Source: Psychrobacter sp. HD31 (GTDB lineage Bacteria; Pseudomonadota; Gammaproteobacteria; Pseudomonadales; Moraxellaceae). Taken from it: a stretch of DNA of 32,000 nucleotides. Position numbers and translations under genes: made by a program. This document shows positions 18,527-25,486 of this stretch, one piece after another (the stretch's first letter is position 1; every line of letters begins with the position of its first letter). Location of the stretch: positions 1,620,001 through 1,652,000 of the forward strand of contig NZ_CP142525.1 in assembly GCF_051097895.1 (NCBI RefSeq). The letters run 5' to 3'. A model generated the notes under the pieces. It saw only the letters and a program-made list of their open reading frames with translations, was not told the DNA's origin and did not search any database.

Positions 18527-19230
18527 AATTTATCTACTCCAACAAATCCGCCAAACGGCAACACTGCTTTTTTGCCAAAGCGAGCACGGCAGCCCTGCAA
18601 GCATTTACTGCATTTGTCTTTTTTGGGGTCATCAGTTGGCTGGTCGTATTCATCTGCCACTGCATGCCCCGTGTATCCACAGCCATCGCCACGGTATGCC
18701 CAGTTGCAAGTGTTTGCCACGATAATCCGTTTGGGTAGTACGGCACCGTCAGTTTCACTTGGTACCGCTAATTCAAAAGTGGCGGATTGATTTGTAAGTG
18801 CTGAGTAGCGTTCAATAACAAAGCGTGATACTAGCTGGGCGTTTGGGTCTGCGTTTGGATTTGTACCATCTGCAAAGTTAACTGAATCTAAGTGCTTGGC
18901 ATACACTTGACGCCGTGTGACTTTAGCACCAATACCGCCCTGATAATTTTCCACCACGCCAGTCACCAAGCCATATATATTAGATAAGGTAATATTGGGG
19001 CGGTTGCTTGCGCCCTCACTTTTTAACTCAAAGCCGTCTGCTTGGATTGGGTACGGCTGATATGGCACACCTTGCCACACTACGGATTGACCGAGTTCGT
19101 TGGTTTGGTTACAAAAATGGTATTCTTCACCGCCAAAGCTCGTCATATCAATGTCAAACAGCTCAAGTAATACATCTTGTTCTAACTTAGTGATTTCTTG
19201 CTGTTGTGAGTCGGTTAATTCTCTACTCAT
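18523..19230 (-). CDS. minor tail protein L
   Basis: Near-colinear with lambda L: TETDGAV, ANTC-W-YRG--CGY-G-AVADEYDQPT and KDKCSKCL-GC. ATGA overlap with M fixes the start at 19230. Confidence 0.93.
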   Translation of the reverse strand: MSRELTDSQQQEITKLEQDVLLELFDIDMTSFGGEEYHFCNQTNELGQSVVWQGVPYQPYPIQADGFELKSEGASNRPNITLSNIYGLVTGVVENYQGGIGAKVTRRQVYAKHLDSVNFADGTNPNADPNAQLVSRFVIERYSALTNQSATFELAVPSETDGAVLPKRIIVANTCNWAYRGDGCGYTGHAVADEYDQPTDDPKKDKCSKCLQGCRARFGKKAVLPFGGFVGVDKL

Positions 19231-19556
19231 GCTAATACCTGCTGCATTGTCCATGTTAGCGACCAGTCACTGCCGCCTTGTGGACTTCGTGTTACGTCTT
19301 TAGCTATGTACTTACGCAATGGCTCGTCACTGGTTACACGCCACCAAAATGCCGTGACTGTATGTGCGTCTAAAAATGCTTTGATTTCGTCAATTTTTGC
19401 TTTTGTGTCAACACGGCTGGCTTGCCAATGTTCAAGCTTGGGGGCAAGTCCTTTTTTTTGGCGTTGGGCGTAGCCGTTACCAAATTGAACGATGTTGACG
19501 TCATCGTCTGTTTTGCCAGTGGCTTTGATACCGATGTCATAAGTAAATGTTTTCAT
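19227..19556 (-). CDS. minor tail protein M
   Basis: 109 aa. FGNGY-QR motif and position upstream of L, as for lambda M. Confidence 0.85.
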   Translation of the reverse strand: MKTFTYDIGIKATGKTDDDVNIVQFGNGYAQRQKKGLAPKLEHWQASRVDTKAKIDEIKAFLDAHTVTAFWWRVTSDEPLRKYIAKDVTRSPQGGSDWSLTWTMQQVLA

Positions 19557-19614
19557 AGTAAAGATGTTATCAATACATAGCTTGTTCTGTAATTAAAGTG
19601 ATTTACTGATTTTT
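19554..19614 (-). promoter_or_regulatory. conserved late-operon leader element, copy C (upstream of gpM)
   Basis: 61 nt colinear with 31641..31702. The 28-nt block matches 25/28, the 12-nt block GTTA(T/G)CAATACA matches 11/12, and both sit at the same 9-nt distance from the ATG. Confidence 0.6.
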
Positions 19615-19621
19615 GAGCACT

Positions 19622-19653
19622 AAAAAAGCCCTTTTAACGATGGTTAAAGGGGC
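19622..19653 (-). terminator. intrinsic terminator after the antirepressor cassette
   Basis: GCCCCTTTAAC / GTTAAAAGGGC stem (one mismatch) followed by U6 on the minus strand. Confidence 0.7.
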
Positions 19654-19680
19654 TTTTAAAACAATTAAAAGGTGTGGTGC

Positions 19681-19872
19681 TTAACGGTTTTTTGACTGGC
19701 TAAGCATTTGTTCAACCTTTTTTAGTTGTTGCAAGGTTCTGTACATCACAATGGCAAAGGCATCAGCGTTGAGTAGTAAGTCTTCTTTATTGTTGCTGGT
19801 TAAGCCGACTATTAGCTCAATGGGGGCGGTTGCTTCTTTTAGGGTGTCTAACTCGCGTGCTAAATTACTCAT
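19681..19872 (-). CDS. hypothetical small helical protein (63 aa), coupled to the antirepressor-like gene
   Basis: ATG lies 1 nt after the upstream stop and a terminator follows. No family recognised. Confidence 0.5.
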   Translation of the reverse strand: MSNLARELDTLKEATAPIELIVGLTSNNKEDLLLNADAFAIVMYRTLQQLKKVEQMLSQSKNR

Positions 19873-19873
19873 A

Positions 19874-20518
19874 TCACACCGCCTTATTTTCTAGGGCTTG
19901 GGCATGCACAAGTGCCAAGGCAAGTTGTTTTGGTTGTGGGTTGTTTGCTACGTTAAAGCCTAATTTTTTCATGGTGCGGATATAGGCGGTTACGGTACTG
20001 CTAGAGCGGTTAATCAACTTACCAATCTCTGTACTGGTTAGTTGCAGTTGTTTGTAGCGGATAATGTCCGCCCATTGGGGGCGTGATTTTAACAGCTCTT
20101 GTTGTAGTGCCTCGTTTTGCTGGGTTAGTTTTAGCACTTGGATAATAGGCTGGGTTTGTTGTTTTTCGCAAGCGATAAAGTAACGGCGTGCTTGCCTGCC
20201 TTTGTCGTTACGTTCTACCATGGACAGTTCTTTTGCCATGTCTAGGGATAGGTGGTATTCAGTCTTAGGACGACCGCCAAATAAGCCTTTAGAGGTTTTC
20301 CCCAAAATTGGGGAAAACTCGACACCCTCAATAAAATCGTAGTCGGCGATACGTTGCTTAATCCAAGTTGCAAAGTCTTTGCCCACGCCTAAAAACTCAT
20401 GTAAATCACGAGCATTGACTAATGGCTGGGGTTGGTTGTTAAGCGTACCTGTAAAGGTAGGGATAAGTTGGGTTGCCTGTGATGGGCGGATGTGTTGCAT
20501 TACGGTTGATTGTGACAT
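19874..20518 (-). CDS. AntA/AntB-type phage antirepressor-like protein with C-terminal HTH
   Basis: NARDLHEFLGVGKDFATWIKQRI...GGRPKTEYHLSLDMAKELSMVERNDKGRQARRYFI matches the AntA N-terminal domain pattern. C-terminal LTSTEIGKLINRSSSTVTAYIRTMKKLGF looks like an HTH. AAGGAG RBS. Confidence 0.8.
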   Translation of the reverse strand: MSQSTVMQHIRPSQATQLIPTFTGTLNNQPQPLVNARDLHEFLGVGKDFATWIKQRIADYDFIEGVEFSPILGKTSKGLFGGRPKTEYHLSLDMAKELSMVERNDKGRQARRYFIACEKQQTQPIIQVLKLTQQNEALQQELLKSRPQWADIIRYKQLQLTSTEIGKLINRSSSTVTAYIRTMKKLGFNVANNPQPKQLALALVHAQALENKAV

Positions 20519-20520
20519 GA

Positions 20521-20648
20521 GTATGTCTCCTTTGTTTACTTTCTAAGGTAAAACCCATAAATGATGGGTGTCGGGAGGTTAGAAAACTGACAAAGGACAG
20601 CCGAAGTTATTTCCCCATATGGGGTCTTGTATTCCTTGCCCTCCCGAC
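20521..20648 (-). promoter_or_regulatory. structured 5' leader RNA of the antirepressor-like gene
   Basis: 9-bp long-range stem (20570..20578 with 20640..20648) encloses a CCCCATATGGGG hairpin (20613..20624). A second hairpin, ACCCAT/ATGGGT (20553..20569), is followed by UUU, then AAGGAG and the ATG. Confidence 0.5.
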
Positions 20649-20654
20649 GCAAAT

Positions 20655-20663
20655 ATTGTACCA
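20655..20663 (-). promoter_or_regulatory. extended -10 promoter candidate (TGgTACAAT)
   Basis: TGGTACAAT read on the minus strand. The predicted +1 (about 20648) coincides with the first base of the leader's outer stem. Confidence 0.4.
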
Positions 20664-20800
20664 AAATACAAGCCATACCGCACGGTTAAGTACGTTAAAA
20701 GCCAAATTTTGGGCACAAAAATACCGCTAAATCTATCGGGAGCGGATATCCGCCTTTGTAGTCAGGTTTCTACGCCTGTGTAGCATTTGCTACGTTTCCC

Positions 20801-20828
20801 ATTTTAAGTGAACATGGCAAAAAGTCAA
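20801..20828 (-). promoter_or_regulatory. sigma70-type promoter candidate TTGACT-N16-TAAAAT
   Basis: Read on the minus strand, directly after the upstream terminator. A 12-bp dyad AACGCATGCGTT (20838..20849) lies just upstream. Confidence 0.45.
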
Positions 20829-20871
20829 GGATTTTTGAACGCATGCGTTATTTTATGGTTGGTGGGGTAAT

Positions 20872-20900
20872 AAAAAAGCCCCTAACATAAGGTTAGGGGC
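20872..20900 (-). terminator. intrinsic terminator ending the two-gene moron
   Basis: GCCCCTAAC / GTTAGGGGC 9-bp stem, 5-nt loop and U6 on the minus strand. Lies 7 nt after the stop at 20908. Confidence 0.8.
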
Positions 20901-20907
20901 TTTGGGG

Positions 20908-21585
20908 TTAAGGGGTTTGTTGTGAGGTTGGCTCAACGTGCATAAGGGATTTTGCCCAAAGTTTGATAATATCCTCTCTGCTGTAGTCTTCTGGTAGTAT
21001 TGAATCCAAACATTCAAGCATATCTTCTTCGGTATGTATCAATAAATTTTCTCCTATTCTTATACCTGCAGACTGATAAAAGATAGCATTAAGTGAATAC
21101 AATTTTGAAGCGTTGGTATCACCTGCTGTGTAAGCTATTTCACTCATCAGCCAGTACGCTTTTTCTACTTCTACAAAATCACGATTTGTGAATTCTTTAA
21201 CCTCAAACCGTGTTTTTTTCTCTTTTAATATTTTATGTATAAATTTGCTACACTCAGCCAATGCCTCGTCATAACGTTCTGCATACATATAGTATTTTGG
21301 AAGTCTTAACCATTTTTGTATTGTGTAGCTAGTGCCAGTTTGGCTCATCAACTCTTGTACTCGGATAAGACAATTAATGGCTTCGTCCCATTCCTTATTT
21401 TTCTTATGCTGGGTTGCTTGTTTGCCCAAACTGCTTATTAACTCTTCAGCAGGGTCGTCATTAACAAAGAAACCTGCACTTAGCCCTGACTCGGTTAGCT
21501 CGTCAGATAGTTTAATTTCTTCAACAATCTTCATATTGCTTTTGGGCTGGTCTTTTTTACCAAATAACCCTTTTAAAAATGTCAT
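20908..21585 (-). CDS. hypothetical cytoplasmic protein with helical-repeat (TPR-like) motifs; moron gene 2
   Basis: AAGGTGG RBS before ATG 21585. EWDEAINCLIRVQEL and RYDEALAECSKFI repeat-like helices. No TM segment. No family recognised. Confidence 0.6.
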   Translation of the reverse strand: MTFLKGLFGKKDQPKSNMKIVEEIKLSDELTESGLSAGFFVNDDPAEELISSLGKQATQHKKNKEWDEAINCLIRVQELMSQTGTSYTIQKWLRLPKYYMYAERYDEALAECSKFIHKILKEKKTRFEVKEFTNRDFVEVEKAYWLMSEIAYTAGDTNASKLYSLNAIFYQSAGIRIGENLLIHTEEDMLECLDSILPEDYSREDIIKLWAKSLMHVEPTSQQTP

Positions 21586-21613
21586 CTTCACCACCTTTAA
21601 TTAAAGTGCCTTA

Positions 21614-22288
21614 TTATCTTTCAAAGATTTCAAATTCACTTGGTATGTCTTTGCCAAATAAACACATGCCAGTGTACTCAGTTTCTACACCAAATGCGTT
21701 GGTAACTTCAAAGTCTGTTTTAACCTGAAATCTTCCAGAATTTTTATTTACCATTGTTACAGTACCAGCAATCTCATGCAATGTGAGCTTAGCAGTTGAG
21801 TCAATTTCTGCCTTAATCAAGTCAAAACATTCTTGTGTTAGCTTAGCTTCATCATATTTAGTTTCACTATTTGCCACAGCAACTGCGTTTTCATCTTTTA
21901 ATTGCTGTTCTGTAAACTCAAACCTACCAGCGTCTTTACAATCTACAAAATAGCGTAAATTATCTATAGTTGAATCTTCGCTTAATTCAGAAGCCCAAAC
22001 CTCAGTACAATCATCATGCATAGCTGCTTTAGTAGCTGCTATCTTGCGGTGCTGTTCCACCTCATCTATCCTTGATCCATACTTAGCTAACAGTTTGGGG
22101 TAAGTTGCCTTATCGTAGGGAGCTAAAACAGCTTCATCAATTTTTTCTTCTACTTTTGCTAATTCTTCAGCTTTTTGTTTTTCTTCAAATGCTTTTTGTT
22201 CTTCAGGTGTTAAATCTGGTGCAAATATAACTGATATAACAATAAGCGCAATAAAACCAAAAAATAGCCATTTTAGAACTTTTTTCAT
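21614..22288 (-). CDS. hypothetical exported or membrane-anchored protein with four Cys; moron gene 1
   Basis: GAGGA RBS. MKKVLKWLFFGFIALIVISVIFA signal/anchor without a lipobox Cys. Charged helical linker followed by a 4-Cys domain. No family recognised. Confidence 0.6.
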   Translation of the reverse strand: MKKVLKWLFFGFIALIVISVIFAPDLTPEEQKAFEEKQKAEELAKVEEKIDEAVLAPYDKATYPKLLAKYGSRIDEVEQHRKIAATKAAMHDDCTEVWASELSEDSTIDNLRYFVDCKDAGRFEFTEQQLKDENAVAVANSETKYDEAKLTQECFDLIKAEIDSTAKLTLHEIAGTVTMVNKNSGRFQVKTDFEVTNAFGVETEYTGMCLFGKDIPSEFEIFER

Positions 22289-22306
22289 ACTTCAATCCTC
22301 AATATT

Positions 22307-22351
22307 GTATGATTAAACTTTAATCATACTCGCAATAATAAACCGTTGCAA
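22307..22351 (-). promoter_or_regulatory. moron promoter TTGCAA-N17-TATGAT overlapped by a perfect 23-bp palindrome (putative operator)
   Basis: -35 at 22346..22351 and -10 at 22323..22328 (minus strand). The palindrome GTATGATTAAA-c-TTTAATCATAC at 22307..22329 covers the -10 and +1 positions. Confidence 0.5.
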
Positions 22352-22355
22352 CGGC

Positions 22356-25300
22356 TTAAGCATGTGCCAACATGCCGCCTGGTCTTGTTTCGTTTTGCAG
22401 GGTTTGCAGCACTACTGCTTTTAGCGAGTCGGCAAGTTGTTTGCTATCTTGGGTAGTGGTTTGCACATCACTACTTGCACCCTCATTATTAACCCTAATA
22501 TCAATCTGCACTTGATTTACCACCCCAGCAGATTGACTGGCTTGTTTGTTACCATATACCTGCACGCCTAATTTTCCATTTGCCCCACGTGTCAGCGGCA
22601 TTACGGCTTCTGGACCAGCTTCACCTAAAACACCCAAACCGCCTGCATGACCAAATGCTGTTGGACGGTCAAATACACCACCATTGGCATAAAACTGCAC
22701 GCCATTAGTCCAACCACCGCCTTTGGATTGAAATACTGTTTGCATGGCAGCGCCAACGTTACCGCCAATTGCTCCGCCTATGGCACTCATGGCTTTAAAT
22801 AAAGCCCATTTAAACATCATCTTGCTAATATCTTGTAGAATTGATACCGTCAAATCTCTAAAATTGCCTTTGCCTGTGGCAACAAAGTTTGCTAAGCCAT
22901 CACTCATTTTATTAAATGCTGACTTGGTGGCGTCTTCCATAGTCTGATTGAGTGTTTTTGCATTATCAATAAGGCTTTGCAGACCAGACTTAATACCGCC
23001 AACCCAGTCATTGGCTTGTAGGGCTTCTTGCTGTTTACGCAATGCTGCCAACTCTTCACGCTGGGCGATAAGTGCCTGCAATGCTTCATCAGATAAATCA
23101 ATGCCTGCCTGTTCTGCTTGATTAAGTAGATTGCGCTCAAAGCGTAGGCGTTGTATTTCATCAGCGGTTTTGCCGATCAATGAGGTTTCAAAGGCATAAT
23201 CAGCTAATGAGGTTTGTTGTTGTGTTTCAAAATTGCTGATTTTTTCATCGGCGGTTAATTGTGCTTTTAGGCGAATAAGCTCACGGTAGCTATCTAGCAC
23301 GCTGTCTTTAATGCCTTTGTATACGCCAGCTTTGCGGTCATAATCAAAACTAGCAAGTGGGCTATCATTACCAAACAAAGCAATCTCTTTGTTAAGGCTT
23401 GACATACCATCCATTACTGATTTTGCAAGTTGTAGTGCCGTTTGGTATGCCTCAGACTTTTTGTTATTTAAACCAATAATTAACCCAGTGCCAACATCAA
23501 GACCAATTGCAATGGTTTTTTTGGCGGGTGAATGACGGTCAAAACCAATATTTAATGCGCTCAATACTGTGTTTGCCATATCTGTTGCAATGTTTTTAAC
23601 TGCTGCAAATTTTGCTTTAATCCCGTTGATAAGACCCTGCACAACATCCTTGCCTATATTAAATAGCTTGGCACCCAGCGTTGCAAAAACCTTAGCGATA
23701 TTGATAACACCCCTGCCAACAATCGCCACTGCATTTTTTAAGCCAGCACCTATGATAGAAACAAAACCTTTTATATCACCACTTGCCAATGCTTTAATGG
23801 CGTTAAAGGTTGTTTTAAAACCGTTTTTAATTAGCTTAAATGTTGTATTAAACACGGTTGCAATAATGGACAAGCCTGCAGTAAATGTGGCTTTAATTAC
23901 TGCAAAATTGGTGCTTACAATGGCTTTAATGGCACCAAACGTTGTTGTGAATATGCTCTTAATAATTGCCCAACGGGCAGTAAACAGGGCTGATACAACT
24001 GTCATTGTTGTTTTTACATAGGGTGCTAAAAAGTCAAATGCGGTGGTTGCCCATTGTTTAAGGGTGCTAAACGTTTGTTTGATGTTGCCAAAAGCTTCCT
24101 GCACTGGGGCAGGTAAACTACTAAATACATCGGTTGCTTTGGCTTTGATAGTGTCCCAATTGCGGTATAAAAGCACGCCAACCGCTACTAAACCGCCAAT
24201 AGCAGCCAGTGTTAGAGTAACAGGGCTAGTTACCAATGCTACCGCCGCACCAAACCCTGCAGTAACCGCTGTTGCTAATGTGCCTACGGCAGACCAAGCA
24301 GCAACGCCTGCTGTAAACAACCCAAATGCACCTGCAGCTGCTGCAACGCCACTAGCTAAAGGTATTATTATGTCTTGATGTGCTATAAAAAACTCAGTCA
24401 CATTACCCATTGTTTCTGCAGAAGCAGCAGCAAAACTTTGCAGGTGGTTAAAAGCATTAGCAACCTCATCTATAACACTTTTAATTTTTTGGGCGTTAGC
24501 AGGTTCTTGTAGTGCTGATGTCATGCTAGCAAGCCCATCTGCTACGTTAACAACAATATCCTGAATAACCTCGCCAACACCCCCTCGTACAATGGCAAGC
24601 TTAAAGCTGTTCCAGTTATCACCTAAGTTACTAATTGCACCGTCTAAGGTTTTAGCTCGGTTTGCCATTGCTTCGCCAAACTTAGTTTCGCCAATGGATA
24701 GTAGGTACTGTTTAATATCTTGTGCTTTTTTAGCAACGGTTGTAGTTACGCCCTGAAATGTTAATGAGACTTTATCCCCTTGCTGTGAAGCTTTAATACC
24801 AAACTCTTTTAGACGTTCAAACTCAAATGTTGACGCATCCGCAACCGCCTCAATCATTTGGTTTAAGTCTTTACCCATGGCCGCTGCAAAGTTACCGTAA
24901 CTACGCATACTGCGCATACTAGGGTCTAAGCCTAAGTTTTTTAACTGGGTAAAGCCCATGACTGATTGTTCTAGGGCATAGGGAGTGGTAGAAGCAAACT
25001 TTGTTAAATCATTAAATGCAACAGCAGCTTGGTCTATGCCCCCTGTTGCTGTAATAAGCTGGGAGTTAAGCACATCAAATTGGCGTTGGGTGTCTACCAA
25101 TGAGCCAAGACTTAATGCAGATGTAAGTGTGGCAAATGCCCCACCAAATACGGCTAGTTTGCCTGCAGCTTCACCAATATTACGCCCAAAGTTTATAGAA
25201 CGCCTCGCGGTTTGTTCTAATGAGGTTTTAAACCCTTTTAGGCGTTTATTTGCCCAATCAGAACGCCCACCAAAGTTTTGTATTCGGGTGGTGGTTTGCT

Positions 25301-25463
25301 TGGCACGCTGTTTTAACCTATCAAAGGTTTTGCTAACACCAGCTCCTGCTTTACTTGATGTTTTTTCTACCTTGTCTAGTGCTGCCTCTACCTTGTCTAA
25401 TGTTTTTGTTAGTGCTGTGCCGTCGGCTGTAAGCACTAGCCCAAACTTTAAATTTTTGCTCAT
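22356..25463 (-). CDS. tail tape measure protein
   Basis: About 1035 aa. Alpha-helical, with a long Ala/Gly/Val-rich hydrophobic centre and F--TF-AIK periodic repeats. Lies downstream of G/GT. ATG 25463 preferred over TTG 25475. Confidence 0.9.
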   Translation of the reverse strand: MSKNLKFGLVLTADGTALTKTLDKVEAALDKVEKTSSKAGAGVSKTFDRLKQRAKQTTTRIQNFGGRSDWANKRLKGFKTSLEQTARRSINFGRNIGEAAGKLAVFGGAFATLTSALSLGSLVDTQRQFDVLNSQLITATGGIDQAAVAFNDLTKFASTTPYALEQSVMGFTQLKNLGLDPSMRSMRSYGNFAAAMGKDLNQMIEAVADASTFEFERLKEFGIKASQQGDKVSLTFQGVTTTVAKKAQDIKQYLLSIGETKFGEAMANRAKTLDGAISNLGDNWNSFKLAIVRGGVGEVIQDIVVNVADGLASMTSALQEPANAQKIKSVIDEVANAFNHLQSFAAASAETMGNVTEFFIAHQDIIIPLASGVAAAAGAFGLFTAGVAAWSAVGTLATAVTAGFGAAVALVTSPVTLTLAAIGGLVAVGVLLYRNWDTIKAKATDVFSSLPAPVQEAFGNIKQTFSTLKQWATTAFDFLAPYVKTTMTVVSALFTARWAIIKSIFTTTFGAIKAIVSTNFAVIKATFTAGLSIIATVFNTTFKLIKNGFKTTFNAIKALASGDIKGFVSIIGAGLKNAVAIVGRGVINIAKVFATLGAKLFNIGKDVVQGLINGIKAKFAAVKNIATDMANTVLSALNIGFDRHSPAKKTIAIGLDVGTGLIIGLNNKKSEAYQTALQLAKSVMDGMSSLNKEIALFGNDSPLASFDYDRKAGVYKGIKDSVLDSYRELIRLKAQLTADEKISNFETQQQTSLADYAFETSLIGKTADEIQRLRFERNLLNQAEQAGIDLSDEALQALIAQREELAALRKQQEALQANDWVGGIKSGLQSLIDNAKTLNQTMEDATKSAFNKMSDGLANFVATGKGNFRDLTVSILQDISKMMFKWALFKAMSAIGGAIGGNVGAAMQTVFQSKGGGWTNGVQFYANGGVFDRPTAFGHAGGLGVLGEAGPEAVMPLTRGANGKLGVQVYGNKQASQSAGVVNQVQIDIRVNNEGASSDVQTTTQDSKQLADSLKAVVLQTLQNETRPGGMLAHA

Positions 25464-25486
25464 TATCAACACCAAATTTTAAATAT

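What the first reader, a model, noticed from the sequence alone, without database searches (positions are those of the whole stretch)
20872..22354. Self-contained two-gene moron of unknown function between the tape measure and tail-tip genes (best candidate for an undescribed system)
In lambda-type tails H is followed directly by M. Here the TMP stop (22356) is followed by a complete independent unit. It starts with a sigma70-like promoter, TTGCAA-N17-TATGAT. The -10/+1 region is covered by a perfect 11+1+11 palindrome (22307..22329); by a rough estimate a palindrome this long is expected far less than once per window by chance. Next come a GAGGA RBS and a 224-aa protein with a signal/anchor (no lipobox), a charged helical linker and a 4-Cys domain, so it is probably periplasmic. 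An AAGGTGG RBS and a 225-aa soluble protein with TPR-like helices follow. The unit ends in a strong terminator (9-bp GC stem plus U6) 7 nt after the stop. I recognise no family for either protein. Promoter-operator-gene-terminator cassettes wedged between late genes are the classic moron layout (HK97/HK022). They are usually expressed from the lysogen for superinfection exclusion, defence or host interaction. Pairing an envelope protein with a cytoplasmic one would suit an entry-sensing or exclusion pair, but that is speculation.
Basis: partly seen in the sequence, partly recalled or inferred. Interest (0 to 1): 0.7.

Follow-up and report, generated by a model that had tools for sequence, protein, structure and literature searches.

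The report
Two unrelated accessory genes beside tape-measure gene
A Psychrobacter prophage carries two add-on genes between its tail tape-measure and tail-tip genes; they are real and laid out like a classic "moron", but comparison with other phages shows they are two independent passenger genes (an envelope-anchored protein that probably blocks rival phages, and a small TPR protein of unknown role), not a two-part system.

Summary
The described features are all present. These are a promoter-like site, a perfect 23-bp palindrome, two ORFs with good ribosome-binding sites, and a strong terminator. They lie between the lambda-type tail genes H (tape measure protein, TMP) and M, in a prophage of Psychrobacter sp. 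HD31. GC content drops to 34-37% there, against 42-47% in the flanks.

The moron reading is supported. The "two-gene system" reading is not.

- **No pairing elsewhere.** No p2 homolog lies in 25 p1-family loci, and no p1 homolog lies in 41 p2-family loci. A sister phage has TMP followed by p2 without p1. Another has a different membrane-anchored gene in the same slot.
- **p1.** It belongs to PHROG 29597 (function unknown). The family is lipoprotein- or TM-anchored, with an exported domain carrying four conserved cysteines. In more than 20 loci from Pseudomonas and Pasteurella phages and uncultured viral contigs it sits directly next to the TMP gene with its own terminator. This is the slot of the HK97 gp15 superinfection-exclusion moron. 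I infer, but have not shown, that p1 blocks DNA injection.
- **p2.** It is a small TPR-fold protein (PHROG 38637). Its other homologs lie mostly in Mu-like phages, just before the lysis genes. Its function is unknown.

No known defence family matched. This is an ordinary kind of feature made of uncharacterised proteins.

The parts
22356..25475 (-). Tape measure protein gene (lambda H analogue). It forms the upstream border of the accessory island.
   Evidence: Pfam TMP_3 5.4e-11 and Tape_meas_lam_C 1.6e-18. Syntenic with the TMPs of L004 and L031.
22323..22351 (-). Sigma-70-like promoter candidate TTGCAA-N17-TATGAT. The -10 lies within the GTATGATT motif conserved after the TMP stop in related phages.
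   Evidence: 9 of 12 matches, no better than chance on its own. GTATGATT is invariant in the window, L004 and L031.
22307..22329 (.). Perfect 11+1+11 palindrome GTATGATTAAA-G-TTTAATCATAC covering the -10/+1 region. It is a candidate operator; the binding factor is unknown.
   Evidence: Expected 0.027-0.08 per 32 kb. Folds at -8.9 kcal/mol as RNA. Not present in this form in L004 or L031.
21614..22288 (-). p1 (VH441_07250), 224 aa. It has an N-in signal anchor (residues about 4-23), a charged helix, and an exported two-subdomain region with Cys94/117 and Cys154/209. It is a member of PHROG 29597 and a candidate superinfection-exclusion protein. GAGGA ribosome-binding site at 22300-22296.
   Evidence: Homologs sit next to TMP genes with their own terminators.
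20908..21585 (-). p2 (VH441_07245), 225 aa. It is a cytoplasmic TPR-fold protein and a member of PHROG 38637, with unknown function. AAGGTGG ribosome-binding site at 21597-21591. There is no terminator between p1 and p2, so they are probably co-transcribed here.
   Evidence: Homologs without p1 in L004 and in Mu-like phages.
20869..20903 (-). Intrinsic terminator ending the p1-p2 unit.
   Evidence: 12-bp stem, 5-nt loop, T-run. Folding energy -18.9 kcal/mol, z = -4.68, 0 of 200 shuffles as stable. Absent after p2 in L004.
19600..20868 (-). Neighbouring, separate accessory cassette in the same H|M gap. It holds promoter-like TTGACT-N16-TAAAAT (20828-20801), an isrK-like stretch (20717-20796, below threshold), an sRNA-Xcc1 element (20562-20648), an AntA-type antirepressor gene (19874-20518), a 63-aa ORF (19681-19872) and a terminator (19624-19657).
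   Evidence: The leader is 87% identical to L004.
19227..19556 (-). Minor tail protein M gene. It forms the downstream border of the accessory island.
   Evidence: Pfam Phage_min_tail 1e-23. 72-75% identical to M of L031 and L004.

Best explanation
The interval lies in a hot spot for accessory genes at the junction between the tape-measure gene (H) and the tail-tip gene (M) of a lambda-like Psychrobacter prophage. It holds two independent passenger genes. In this phage they happen to lie in one transcription unit, running from a promoter-like site to a terminator.

**p1 (inferred function).** p1 is anchored in the inner membrane by an N-terminal signal anchor. It exposes a disulfide-stabilised, two-subdomain region to the periplasm. 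I infer that it is made from the prophage and acts as a superinfection-exclusion protein. In this model it interferes, at the outer face of the inner membrane, with the DNA-injection conduit that incoming siphophages build with their tape measure protein. That would make it a functional analogue of HK97 gp15 and of Ltp from phage TP-J34.

**p2 (function unknown).** p2 is a cytoplasmic TPR-fold protein-binding module. In other phages it travels alone, mostly at the early/lysis boundary of Mu-like phages. Most likely it binds a host or phage protein as a takeover, anti-defence or defence factor. It does not need p1.

**What is shown and what is inferred.**
- Shown: the anatomy, the accessory status, the lack of pairing, the family memberships, the predicted topology and the TPR fold.
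- Inferred: expression in the lysogen, the operator role of the palindrome, and the exclusion mechanism.
For: **Accessory status**
- Syntenic relatives differ exactly between the TMP stop and a conserved terminator upstream of M. L004 has TMP followed by p2. L031 has TMP followed by an unrelated 161-aa anchored protein.
- GC content dips over the interval.
- The terminator is strong.
- GTATGATT after the TMP stop is conserved in all three phages.

**Independence of p1 and p2**
- No co-occurrence: 0 of 41 and 0 of 25 loci.
- L004 keeps a remnant of the anchored gene's start (GTGATAAAT) fused to the p2 start.

**p1**
- Full-length match to PHROG 29597 (6.5e-22). All 15 aligned relatives match it.
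- Four Cys are conserved family-wide. Most relatives have a lipobox, several with Asp at +2. Others have a TM anchor. The Neisseria homolog has a cytoplasmic domain, then a TM segment, then the same exported domain.
- The homolog lies immediately upstream of a TMP gene in Pm86, VW-6S, L007, L009-L012 and 13 of 15 IMG/VR loci. The TMP was verified; the ORF maps are.
- Each of three homologs checked is followed by an intrinsic terminator.
- The closest homolog (L013) lies in an early region, so the gene is mobile.
- HK97 gp15 occupies the same chaperone|TMP slot. It is an inner-membrane protein that blocks injection (PMC3594210). Escape from gp15 and from Ltp maps to TMP or tail genes (PMC10883804).

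**p2**
- The AlphaFold model is helical-repeat. Its Foldseek top hits are all TPR domains (probability 1.0).
- 22 of 84 relatives match Pfam TPR_2.
- Full-length homologs lie in front of endolysin/holin genes in Mu-like phages.
Against: - No experiment or expression data exist.
- The promoter is only a 9 of 12 consensus match, and such matches are as common in shuffled sequence.
- p1 has no sequence or fold similarity to any known exclusion protein. Foldseek against PDB and BFVD gave nothing below E = 1e-3, and the model has only medium confidence at pLDDT 74.5.
- TMPs next to different p1 homologs share no BLASTP-detectable similarity with the window TMP. The link could therefore reflect a permissive insertion site rather than a TMP-directed function.
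- In Mu-like phages p2 relatives sit in lytic-cycle operons. This argues that p2, at least, need not be a lysogen-expressed function.
- p1 and p2 are co-transcribed here, so a locally evolved cooperation cannot be excluded.
Confidence: 0.6

Rival explanations
1. p1 and p2 form one dedicated two-component system in which an envelope sensor or effector works with a cytoplasmic TPR partner, for example an entry-sensing or abortive-infection pair.
For: The two genes are adjacent, on the same strand and 28 nt apart, with no terminator between them. They are bracketed by one promoter-like site and one terminator. TPR modules are frequent sensor or adaptor domains (general knowledge).
Against: No p1 homolog lies within about 6 kb in 41 p2-family loci, and no p2 homolog lies in 25 p1-family loci. 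The sister phage L004 retains p2 (70% identity) at the same site with p1 deleted. p1 relatives are single-gene cassettes with their own terminators. PADLOC gave no hit.
Confidence: 0.07
2. Both genes are lytic-cycle accessory genes read through from the late tail transcript, not lysogenic-conversion genes. In this reading p1 modifies the envelope late in infection, for example to stop progeny from injecting into lysing cells or debris in the manner of T5 Llp. p2 acts as a host-takeover or anti-defence factor.
For: The genes are embedded in the late operon in the same orientation. The promoter evidence is weak. p2 homologs in Mu-like phages lie in early/middle lytic operons just before the lysis genes. 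The L004 p2 has no terminator of its own.
Against: Terminators follow p1 homologs in the middle of tail operons and follow p2 here. That is the classic design for prophage-state expression. The -10-like motif is conserved at the junction. The palindrome over the -10 suggests dedicated regulation.
Confidence: 0.2
3. p1 and/or p2 are tail-assembly or virion components. For example, p2 could be a TPR chaperone for the tape measure protein.
For: The location is inside the tail module next to TMP. The p1 family is strongly linked to TMP genes.
Against: p1 is predicted to be exported and membrane-anchored or lipidated, which is incompatible with cytoplasmic tail assembly. Close relatives of the phage lack p1 (L004, L031) or lack both genes (L031) and still have intact tail modules. 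p2 relatives in Mu-like phages are far from tail genes. Neither protein matches a tail-assembly family.
Confidence: 0.03
4. The genes are hitch-hiking DNA with no current function.
For: Both protein families are sparse. Only 1-3 close relatives were found among 5.8 billion proteins.
Against: The ORFs are intact and have good ribosome-binding sites. The cysteine pattern and TPR core motifs are conserved across distant relatives. The cassettes recur in many phages.
Confidence: 0.05

Closest known systems
HK97 gene 15 moron (gp15, YebO-like inner-membrane superinfection-exclusion protein)
   Same: Both are single accessory genes inserted next to the tape measure gene of a lambda-like siphophage tail operon, with their own transcription signals. 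Both products are small and membrane-anchored. p1 homologs in Pseudomonas and Pasteurella phages occupy exactly the chaperone|TMP slot of gp15 (PMC3594210).
   Different: There is no sequence relationship (no Pfam or PHROG cross-hit). p1 is larger, with an exported region of about 180 aa carrying four cysteines. In this window it lies downstream, not upstream, of TMP. No exclusion activity has been shown.
Ltp of Streptococcus phage TP-J34 (surface lipoprotein that blocks DNA injection by targeting the TMP)
   Same: Both are prophage-encoded proteins that are lipid- or membrane-anchored and exposed outside the cytoplasm. Most p1 relatives are lipoproteins. Ltp's target is the TMP (Bebeacua et al. 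2013, as cited in PMC3952083 and PMC10883804).
   Different: Ltp comes from a Gram-positive host and sits in the lysogeny module. Its fold is helical HTH-like repeats (my recollection). No sequence match was found to p1. The p1 model is mixed alpha/beta.
Receptor- or entry-blocking lipoproteins Cor (phi80/N15) and Llp (T5)
   Same: Both are small exported or lipidated proteins encoded beside tail or receptor-binding genes, and both protect against superinfection (PMC3594210).
   Different: Cor and Llp act on the outer-membrane receptor FhuA. p1 is anchored by a TM helix, and several relatives carry an Asp+2 lipobox. This points to the inner membrane. There is no homology.
PHROG 29597 and PHROG 38637 (phage protein families of unknown function)
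   Same: p1 matches 29597 over its full length (6.5e-22). p2 matches 38637 (2.7e-5), and its relatives match down to 3e-16.
   Different: Neither family has any annotation, so membership names the proteins but does not explain them.
Tai/Ati tail-assembly-inhibition defence with counter-defence (phi80)
   Same: Both are prophage moron loci holding a pair of adjacent accessory genes that could relate to tails (PMC11364771).
   Different: Tai genes lie upstream of the packaging module and act in the cytoplasm on tail fibre assembly. p1 is exported. No pairing of p1 and p2 is seen in other genomes. Sequence similarity could not be tested because no Tai sequences were at hand.

Membership tests
Moron (Juhala/Hendrix sense) | An extra gene or genes present between two genes that are adjacent in related phages. 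| tested here: met
   H and M are separated by different content in the window, L004 and L031. p1 is absent from both relatives.
Moron (Juhala/Hendrix sense) | Base composition differs from the surrounding genes. | tested here: met
   GC is 0.34-0.37 over 20800-22400, against 0.42-0.48 in the TMP and M-L-K genes.
Moron (Juhala/Hendrix sense) | Its own terminator. | tested here: met
   The hairpin at 20903-20875 plus a T-run folds at -18.9 kcal/mol, z = -4.7. p1 homologs elsewhere also have terminators.
Moron (Juhala/Hendrix sense) | Its own promoter, active in the repressed prophage. | tested here: inconclusive
   The 9 of 12 consensus match is no better than chance. However, the -10-like GTATGATT is invariant at the junction in three phages. 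Activity cannot be tested in silico.
HK97 gp15 / YebO family | Sequence homology to gp15/YebO. | tested here: not met
   No Pfam, NCBIfam or PHROG hit of that kind at E <= 1.
HK97 gp15-like function (superinfection exclusion at DNA entry) | Blocks genome injection of siphophages without blocking adsorption; escape maps to tail or TMP genes. | not testable with these tools
   This needs phage challenge, adsorption and DNA-entry assays.
Known anti-phage defence systems (PADLOC-DB 2.0) | A significant match of either protein to a defence-system model. | tested here: not met
   The only hit was a 13-bit match at E = 0.014 to a DRT accessory model for p1. p2 had no hit.
TPR repeat proteins (p2) | Sequence match to TPR profiles above the curated cut-off. 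| tested here: not met
   TPR_2 scored 15.9 bits against a cut-off of 27, and TPR_12 scored 14.7 against 30.1. 22 of 84 relatives do match TPR_2 at E <= 0.001.
TPR repeat proteins (p2) | A TPR-like helical-repeat fold. | tested here: met
   The AlphaFold model is helical. All top Foldseek PDB hits are TPR domains: probability 1.0, target-normalised TM up to 0.79, but E only about 1e-2. The model has medium confidence (pLDDT 68).
PHROG 29597 (p1) | Full-length profile match. | tested here: met
   E = 6.5e-22 over residues 1-214, covering profile positions 1-222 of 234. 15 of 15 relatives match.
Conserved two-gene system (p1+p2) | The two gene families co-occur across genomes. | tested here: not met
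   0 of 41 and 0 of 25 loci. L004 has p2 only.

The most novel reading that the evidence does not exclude
The p1 family (PHROG 29597) is a previously unrecognised class of injection-blocking exclusion proteins. The class is taxonomically broad, found in prophages of Psychrobacter, Pseudomonas, Pasteurella and Neisseria. It is genetically linked to the tape measure gene because its periplasmic, disulfide-bonded domain recognises the TMP or the TMP-dependent inner-membrane entry route. In this lineage the exported domain is swapped as a cassette on a conserved promoter and signal anchor (window versus L031), and this swap sets exclusion specificity.
Probability: 0.3. Interest if true: 0.55.

Novelty: new member of a known kind. 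Interest (0 to 1): 0.33.

Why it matters
If p1-type proteins do block DNA entry, they would give Gram-negative siphophages a second exclusion family linked to the TMP gene, structurally distinct from HK97 gp15. One homolog lies in an isolated phage with a named host, so it can be tested directly (VW-6S gp37 in Pseudomonas sivasensis W-6). The comparison also marks the H|M junction of this phage lineage as a swap site for accessory cassettes. For genome annotation, the practical lesson is that two adjacent orphan genes sharing a promoter and terminator need not be a system. Co-occurrence across genomes settled that here.

Tried and rejected
- **Known defence components.** PADLOC, Pfam and NCBIfam were all negative.
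- **Sequence and fold matches for p1.** The sequence profile against PDB gave nothing. Foldseek of the p1 model against PDB and BFVD gave nothing below E = 1e-3, only scattered weak NTF2-, PAS- or BamE-like fragments.
- **Sequence and fold matches for p2.** The profile against PDB gave only weak alpha-SNAP (helical repeat) hits.
- **Close DNA relatives among sequenced phages.** None found.
- **Plasmids.** Only the C-terminal subdomain of p1 appears, as a small stand-alone ORF. p2 has no hit.
- **Word-indexed protein search.** It found almost nothing for p1, even with a profile. The 8 hits were mostly the Pseudomonas subfamily.
- **GTDB species-representative genomes.** No p2 relatives were found. 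Only one syntenic prophage was recovered through the M protein.
- **Further copies of the palindrome or its half-site in the window**, which might have been shared operators. None found. The lysogeny module is outside the window, so no candidate repressor could be examined.
- **Similarity among TMPs next to p1 homologs**, as a hint of a shared target. None found.
- **Tai/Ati-type defence with counter-defence.** Considered and set aside because location and cell compartment differ.
- **p2 as a TMP chaperone.** Considered and rejected because its relatives sit far from tail genes.
- **Not possible here.** Disulfide geometry and a p1-p2 complex model could not be checked.
Full report
**1. What is there**

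The window is part of Psychrobacter sp. HD31. The two proteins are identical to the NCBI hypothetical proteins VH441_07250 and VH441_07245.

The late genes of a lambda-like siphophage run on the minus strand:
- Tape measure protein (TMP), 22356-25475. It matches Pfam TMP_3 and Tape_meas_lam_C.
- M, 19227-19556 (Phage_min_tail).
- L, K, I and a 1852-aa J-like protein.

Host genes start below about 9.2 kb.

- TTGCAA-N17-TATGAT at 22351-22323.
- The perfect 11+1+11 palindrome at 22307-22329.
- GAGGA, 7 nt before the p1 ATG.
- p1 at 21614-22288 (224 aa).
- AAGGTGG, 5 nt before the p2 ATG.
- p2 at 20908-21585 (225 aa).
- The terminator at 20903-20875, followed by a T-run.

**2. Is it more than chance?**

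- The terminator is strong. Its energy is -18.9 kcal/mol, z = -4.7, and none of 200 shuffles is as stable.
- A perfect palindrome with arms of 11 or more is expected 0.027 times per 32 kb. With the local AT-rich composition the figure is 0.08. The palindrome is unique in the window.
- The promoter match is not significant on its own. It is 9 of 12, with 8 such sites found against 8.8 expected in shuffles.
- The -10-like GTATGATT that begins the palindrome is invariant directly after the TMP stop in two related phages. This is better evidence for a functional element there.
- GC content falls to 0.34-0.37 across 20800-22400, against 0.42-0.48 in the flanking tail genes.

**3. Relatives of the phage show an accessory-gene hot spot**

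L004 is a metagenomic contig whose DNA is 69-83% identical. Its order is TMP, a 47-nt spacer, a p2 homolog (70% amino-acid identity), a conserved leader, a Rha/Ant-type gene, a 63-aa ORF, and M. It has no p1.

L031 is a Psychrobacter MAG. Its order is TMP, a different 161-aa membrane-anchored protein with two Cys, a terminator, and M. It has neither p1 nor p2.

The junction alignment shows two further points.
- Window p1 and the L031 protein share the 5' region (GTATGATT ... GAGGATTG ... start codon) and a similar signal anchor and linker. BLASTP gives E = 4e-4 over residues 1-42. Their exported domains are unrelated.
- L004 keeps a remnant (GTGATAAAT) of the anchored gene's first codons, fused to the p2 start. 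This is most simply read as a deletion of the anchored gene.

The H|M gap is therefore a swap site.

In the window it holds three things, not one:
- p1.
- p2.
- A separate cassette at 19600-20870: a promoter, two small-RNA-like elements, an AntA antirepressor gene, a 63-aa ORF and a terminator.

**4. p1**

*Family and database matches*
- No Pfam, NCBIfam or PADLOC family matched.
- PHROG 29597 (function unknown) matched over the full length at 6.5e-22. All 15 aligned relatives match this PHROG.

*Conserved features*
- Four Cys are conserved: C94 and C117 in the first subdomain, C154 and C209 in the second.
- There is an FxAxNxFG motif.
- The N-terminal anchors vary:
  - Most relatives have a lipobox, several with Asp at +2.
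  - The window and Pasteurella proteins have a lysine-flanked hydrophobic anchor without Cys.
  - A Neisseria gonorrhoeae prophage homolog has a cytoplasmic domain of about 105 aa, then a TM helix, then the same exported domain.
- The C-terminal subdomain alone occurs as a small TM-anchored ORF on plasmids.

*Structure*
- The AlphaFold model has pLDDT 74.5. It shows a helical stalk followed by two alpha/beta subdomains.
- It has no significant Foldseek match in PDB or BFVD.

*Genomic position*
- The homolog sits immediately upstream of the TMP gene, after the tail chaperone genes, in these loci:
  - Pasteurella phage Pm86 and Pseudomonas phage VW-6S.
  - Pseudomonas prophages and metagenomic contigs.
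  - 13 of 15 IMG/VR loci.
- TMP identity was confirmed by Pfam in six cases.
- All three homologs examined are followed by an intrinsic terminator before the TMP gene.
- The closest homolog (L013, 33% identity) instead lies in an early/replication region. The gene therefore moves between sites.

This chaperone|TMP position is where the founding moron, HK97 gene 15, lies. HK97 gp15 is an inner-membrane protein that blocks genome injection (PMC3594210). Escape from gp15 and from the Ltp lipoprotein maps to tail or TMP genes (PMC10883804; Bebeacua et al. 2013 is cited there and in PMC3952083).

On this basis I infer that p1 is an exclusion protein acting at the periplasmic face of the inner membrane.

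There is a caveat. TMPs beside different p1 homologs share no BLASTP similarity with the window TMP. The link may therefore reflect a permissive site rather than a shared molecular target.

**5. p2**

- Pfam gives only sub-threshold TPR hits.
- The AlphaFold model has pLDDT 68. It shows a short beta hairpin followed by about eight helices.
- Every top Foldseek PDB hit is a TPR domain, with probability 1.0 but E about 1e-2.
- An exhaustive HMMER search of 1.84 billion representatives found 233 relatives at E <= 1e-3, but only 3 at E <= 1e-30. They share the core at residues 45-120, with the motifs ATxxK...WDxAIxCL...LRLPxY..AxR.
- 22 of 84 relatives match TPR_2. All 11 aligned members match PHROG 38637, function unknown.

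The genomic contexts are informative.
- Full-length homologs (36-46% identity) lie in Mu-like phages as the last gene before endolysin and holin, after MuB, GemA, Mor and DUF3164.
- More distant relatives sit after Mor (L033), or next to the divergent early region upstream of the lysis genes in other Mu-like transposable phages. The latter include L034 and, similarly placed, JBD18 gp20.

p2 is therefore a mobile phage accessory gene, and its usual home is a lytic-cycle operon. Its function is unknown. A TPR scaffold suggests that it binds a peptide or protein partner.

**6. Are p1 and p2 a pair?**

No.
- tblastn with all family members found no p1 homolog in 41 p2-family loci, and no p2 homolog in 25 p1-family loci. 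Each locus extended up to about 6 kb to either side, where the contig allowed.
- L004 shows p2 functioning at the same site without p1.

In this phage the two genes are probably co-transcribed. The gap is 28 nt with no terminator. That is a local arrangement, not a conserved system.

**7. Comparison with known systems**

- As a genetic element it meets the moron criteria that can be tested in silico: presence/absence among relatives, deviant GC content, and its own terminator. The promoter criterion is inconclusive.
- p1 resembles HK97 gp15, Ltp, Cor and Llp in logic but belongs to none of those families.
- p2 is a TPR-fold protein without further assignment.
- Neither protein matches PADLOC models.
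- Tai/Ati (PMC11364771) and SNIPE (PMC13190303) are tail-directed and TMP-directed defences respectively. They are conceptually related but differ in architecture.

**8. Verdict**

- The moron interpretation is supported.
- The "undescribed two-gene system" interpretation is not supported.
- It is a new member of a well-known kind of element, built from two uncharacterised but previously catalogued protein families.
- The most useful lead is the tight link between the p1 family and the TMP gene, together with its envelope topology. These make an injection-blocking role testable, for example with VW-6S gp37.
- Interest is modest.

Noticed in passing
window 20562-20648 (-), and L004 6859-6943: There is an above-threshold Rfam match to sRNA-Xcc1 (RF02221): 65.8 bits in the window and 75.5 bits in L004. 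It lies just upstream of the AntA-type (window) or Rha-type (L004) antirepressor gene. An extended -10 (TGgTACAAT in the window, TGgTATAAT in L004) sits 6-7 nt before its 5' end, and a weak terminator-like hairpin follows it. In APSE phages the same RNA family lies upstream of an ORF6N (Ant-like) gene (bioRxiv 10.1101/2020.03.17.996009). It may be a leader or riboregulator of antirepressor-type genes rather than a free-standing sRNA.
   Followed up: partly
window 20650-20830 (-): The best promoter-like site of the region is TTGACT-N16-TAAAAT at 20828-20801 (10 of 12 matches). It is followed by a non-coding stretch of about 100 nt ending in a T-run. Rfam gives a sub-threshold match there to isrK (20717-20796; 20.3 bits against a gathering score of 50; E = 0.13). 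The whole leader is 87% identical to L004, higher than the DNA identity of the neighbouring p2 (77%) and TMP (about 70%) genes. From memory, not checked here: IsrK in Salmonella Gifsy-1 precedes an antirepressor-like gene.
   Followed up: partly
window 20295-20318: A second perfect palindrome, 11+2+11 (GTTTTCCCCAA-TT-TTGGGGAAAAC), lies inside the antirepressor coding sequence. Two perfect palindromes with 11-nt arms in one 32-kb window compare with an expectation of about 0.03.
   Followed up: no
L031 9393-9878 (Psychrobacter MAG 27_S41): At the same TMP|M junction a related prophage carries a different 161-aa protein. Its 5' UTR, ribosome-binding site and signal anchor resemble those of p1, but its two-Cys exported domain is unrelated, and it has its own terminator. 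This suggests cassette-like exchange of the exported domain on a conserved expression and anchor module.
   Followed up: partly
L035 6530-7504 (Neisseria gonorrhoeae chromosome filed as a plasmid in PLSDB, NZ_CP119142.1): A 2.17-Mb N. gonorrhoeae replicon is labelled as a plasmid in the collection. It carries a prophage gene that fuses a cytoplasmic N-terminal domain of about 105 aa and a TM helix to a p1-like exported domain. The gene lies between early genes and a KilA-N/Bro-like gene followed by terminase genes.
   Followed up: partly
window 22332-22358: The window has about 21 extra bases between the TMP stop and the conserved GTATGATT, relative to L004 and L031. They contain the palindromic CCGTTGCAACGG and supply the TTGCAA -35 element at the ideal 17-nt spacing. 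In the relatives any -35 would have to lie within the TMP 3' end at a poorer spacing.
   Followed up: partly
window 22356-25475 vs L004 2282-5974 and L031 6153-9371: The TMPs of three otherwise syntenic phages are 1039, 1230 and 1072 aa long and 50-58% identical. The length differences lie in the central and C-terminal coiled regions, which implies different tail lengths.
   Followed up: no
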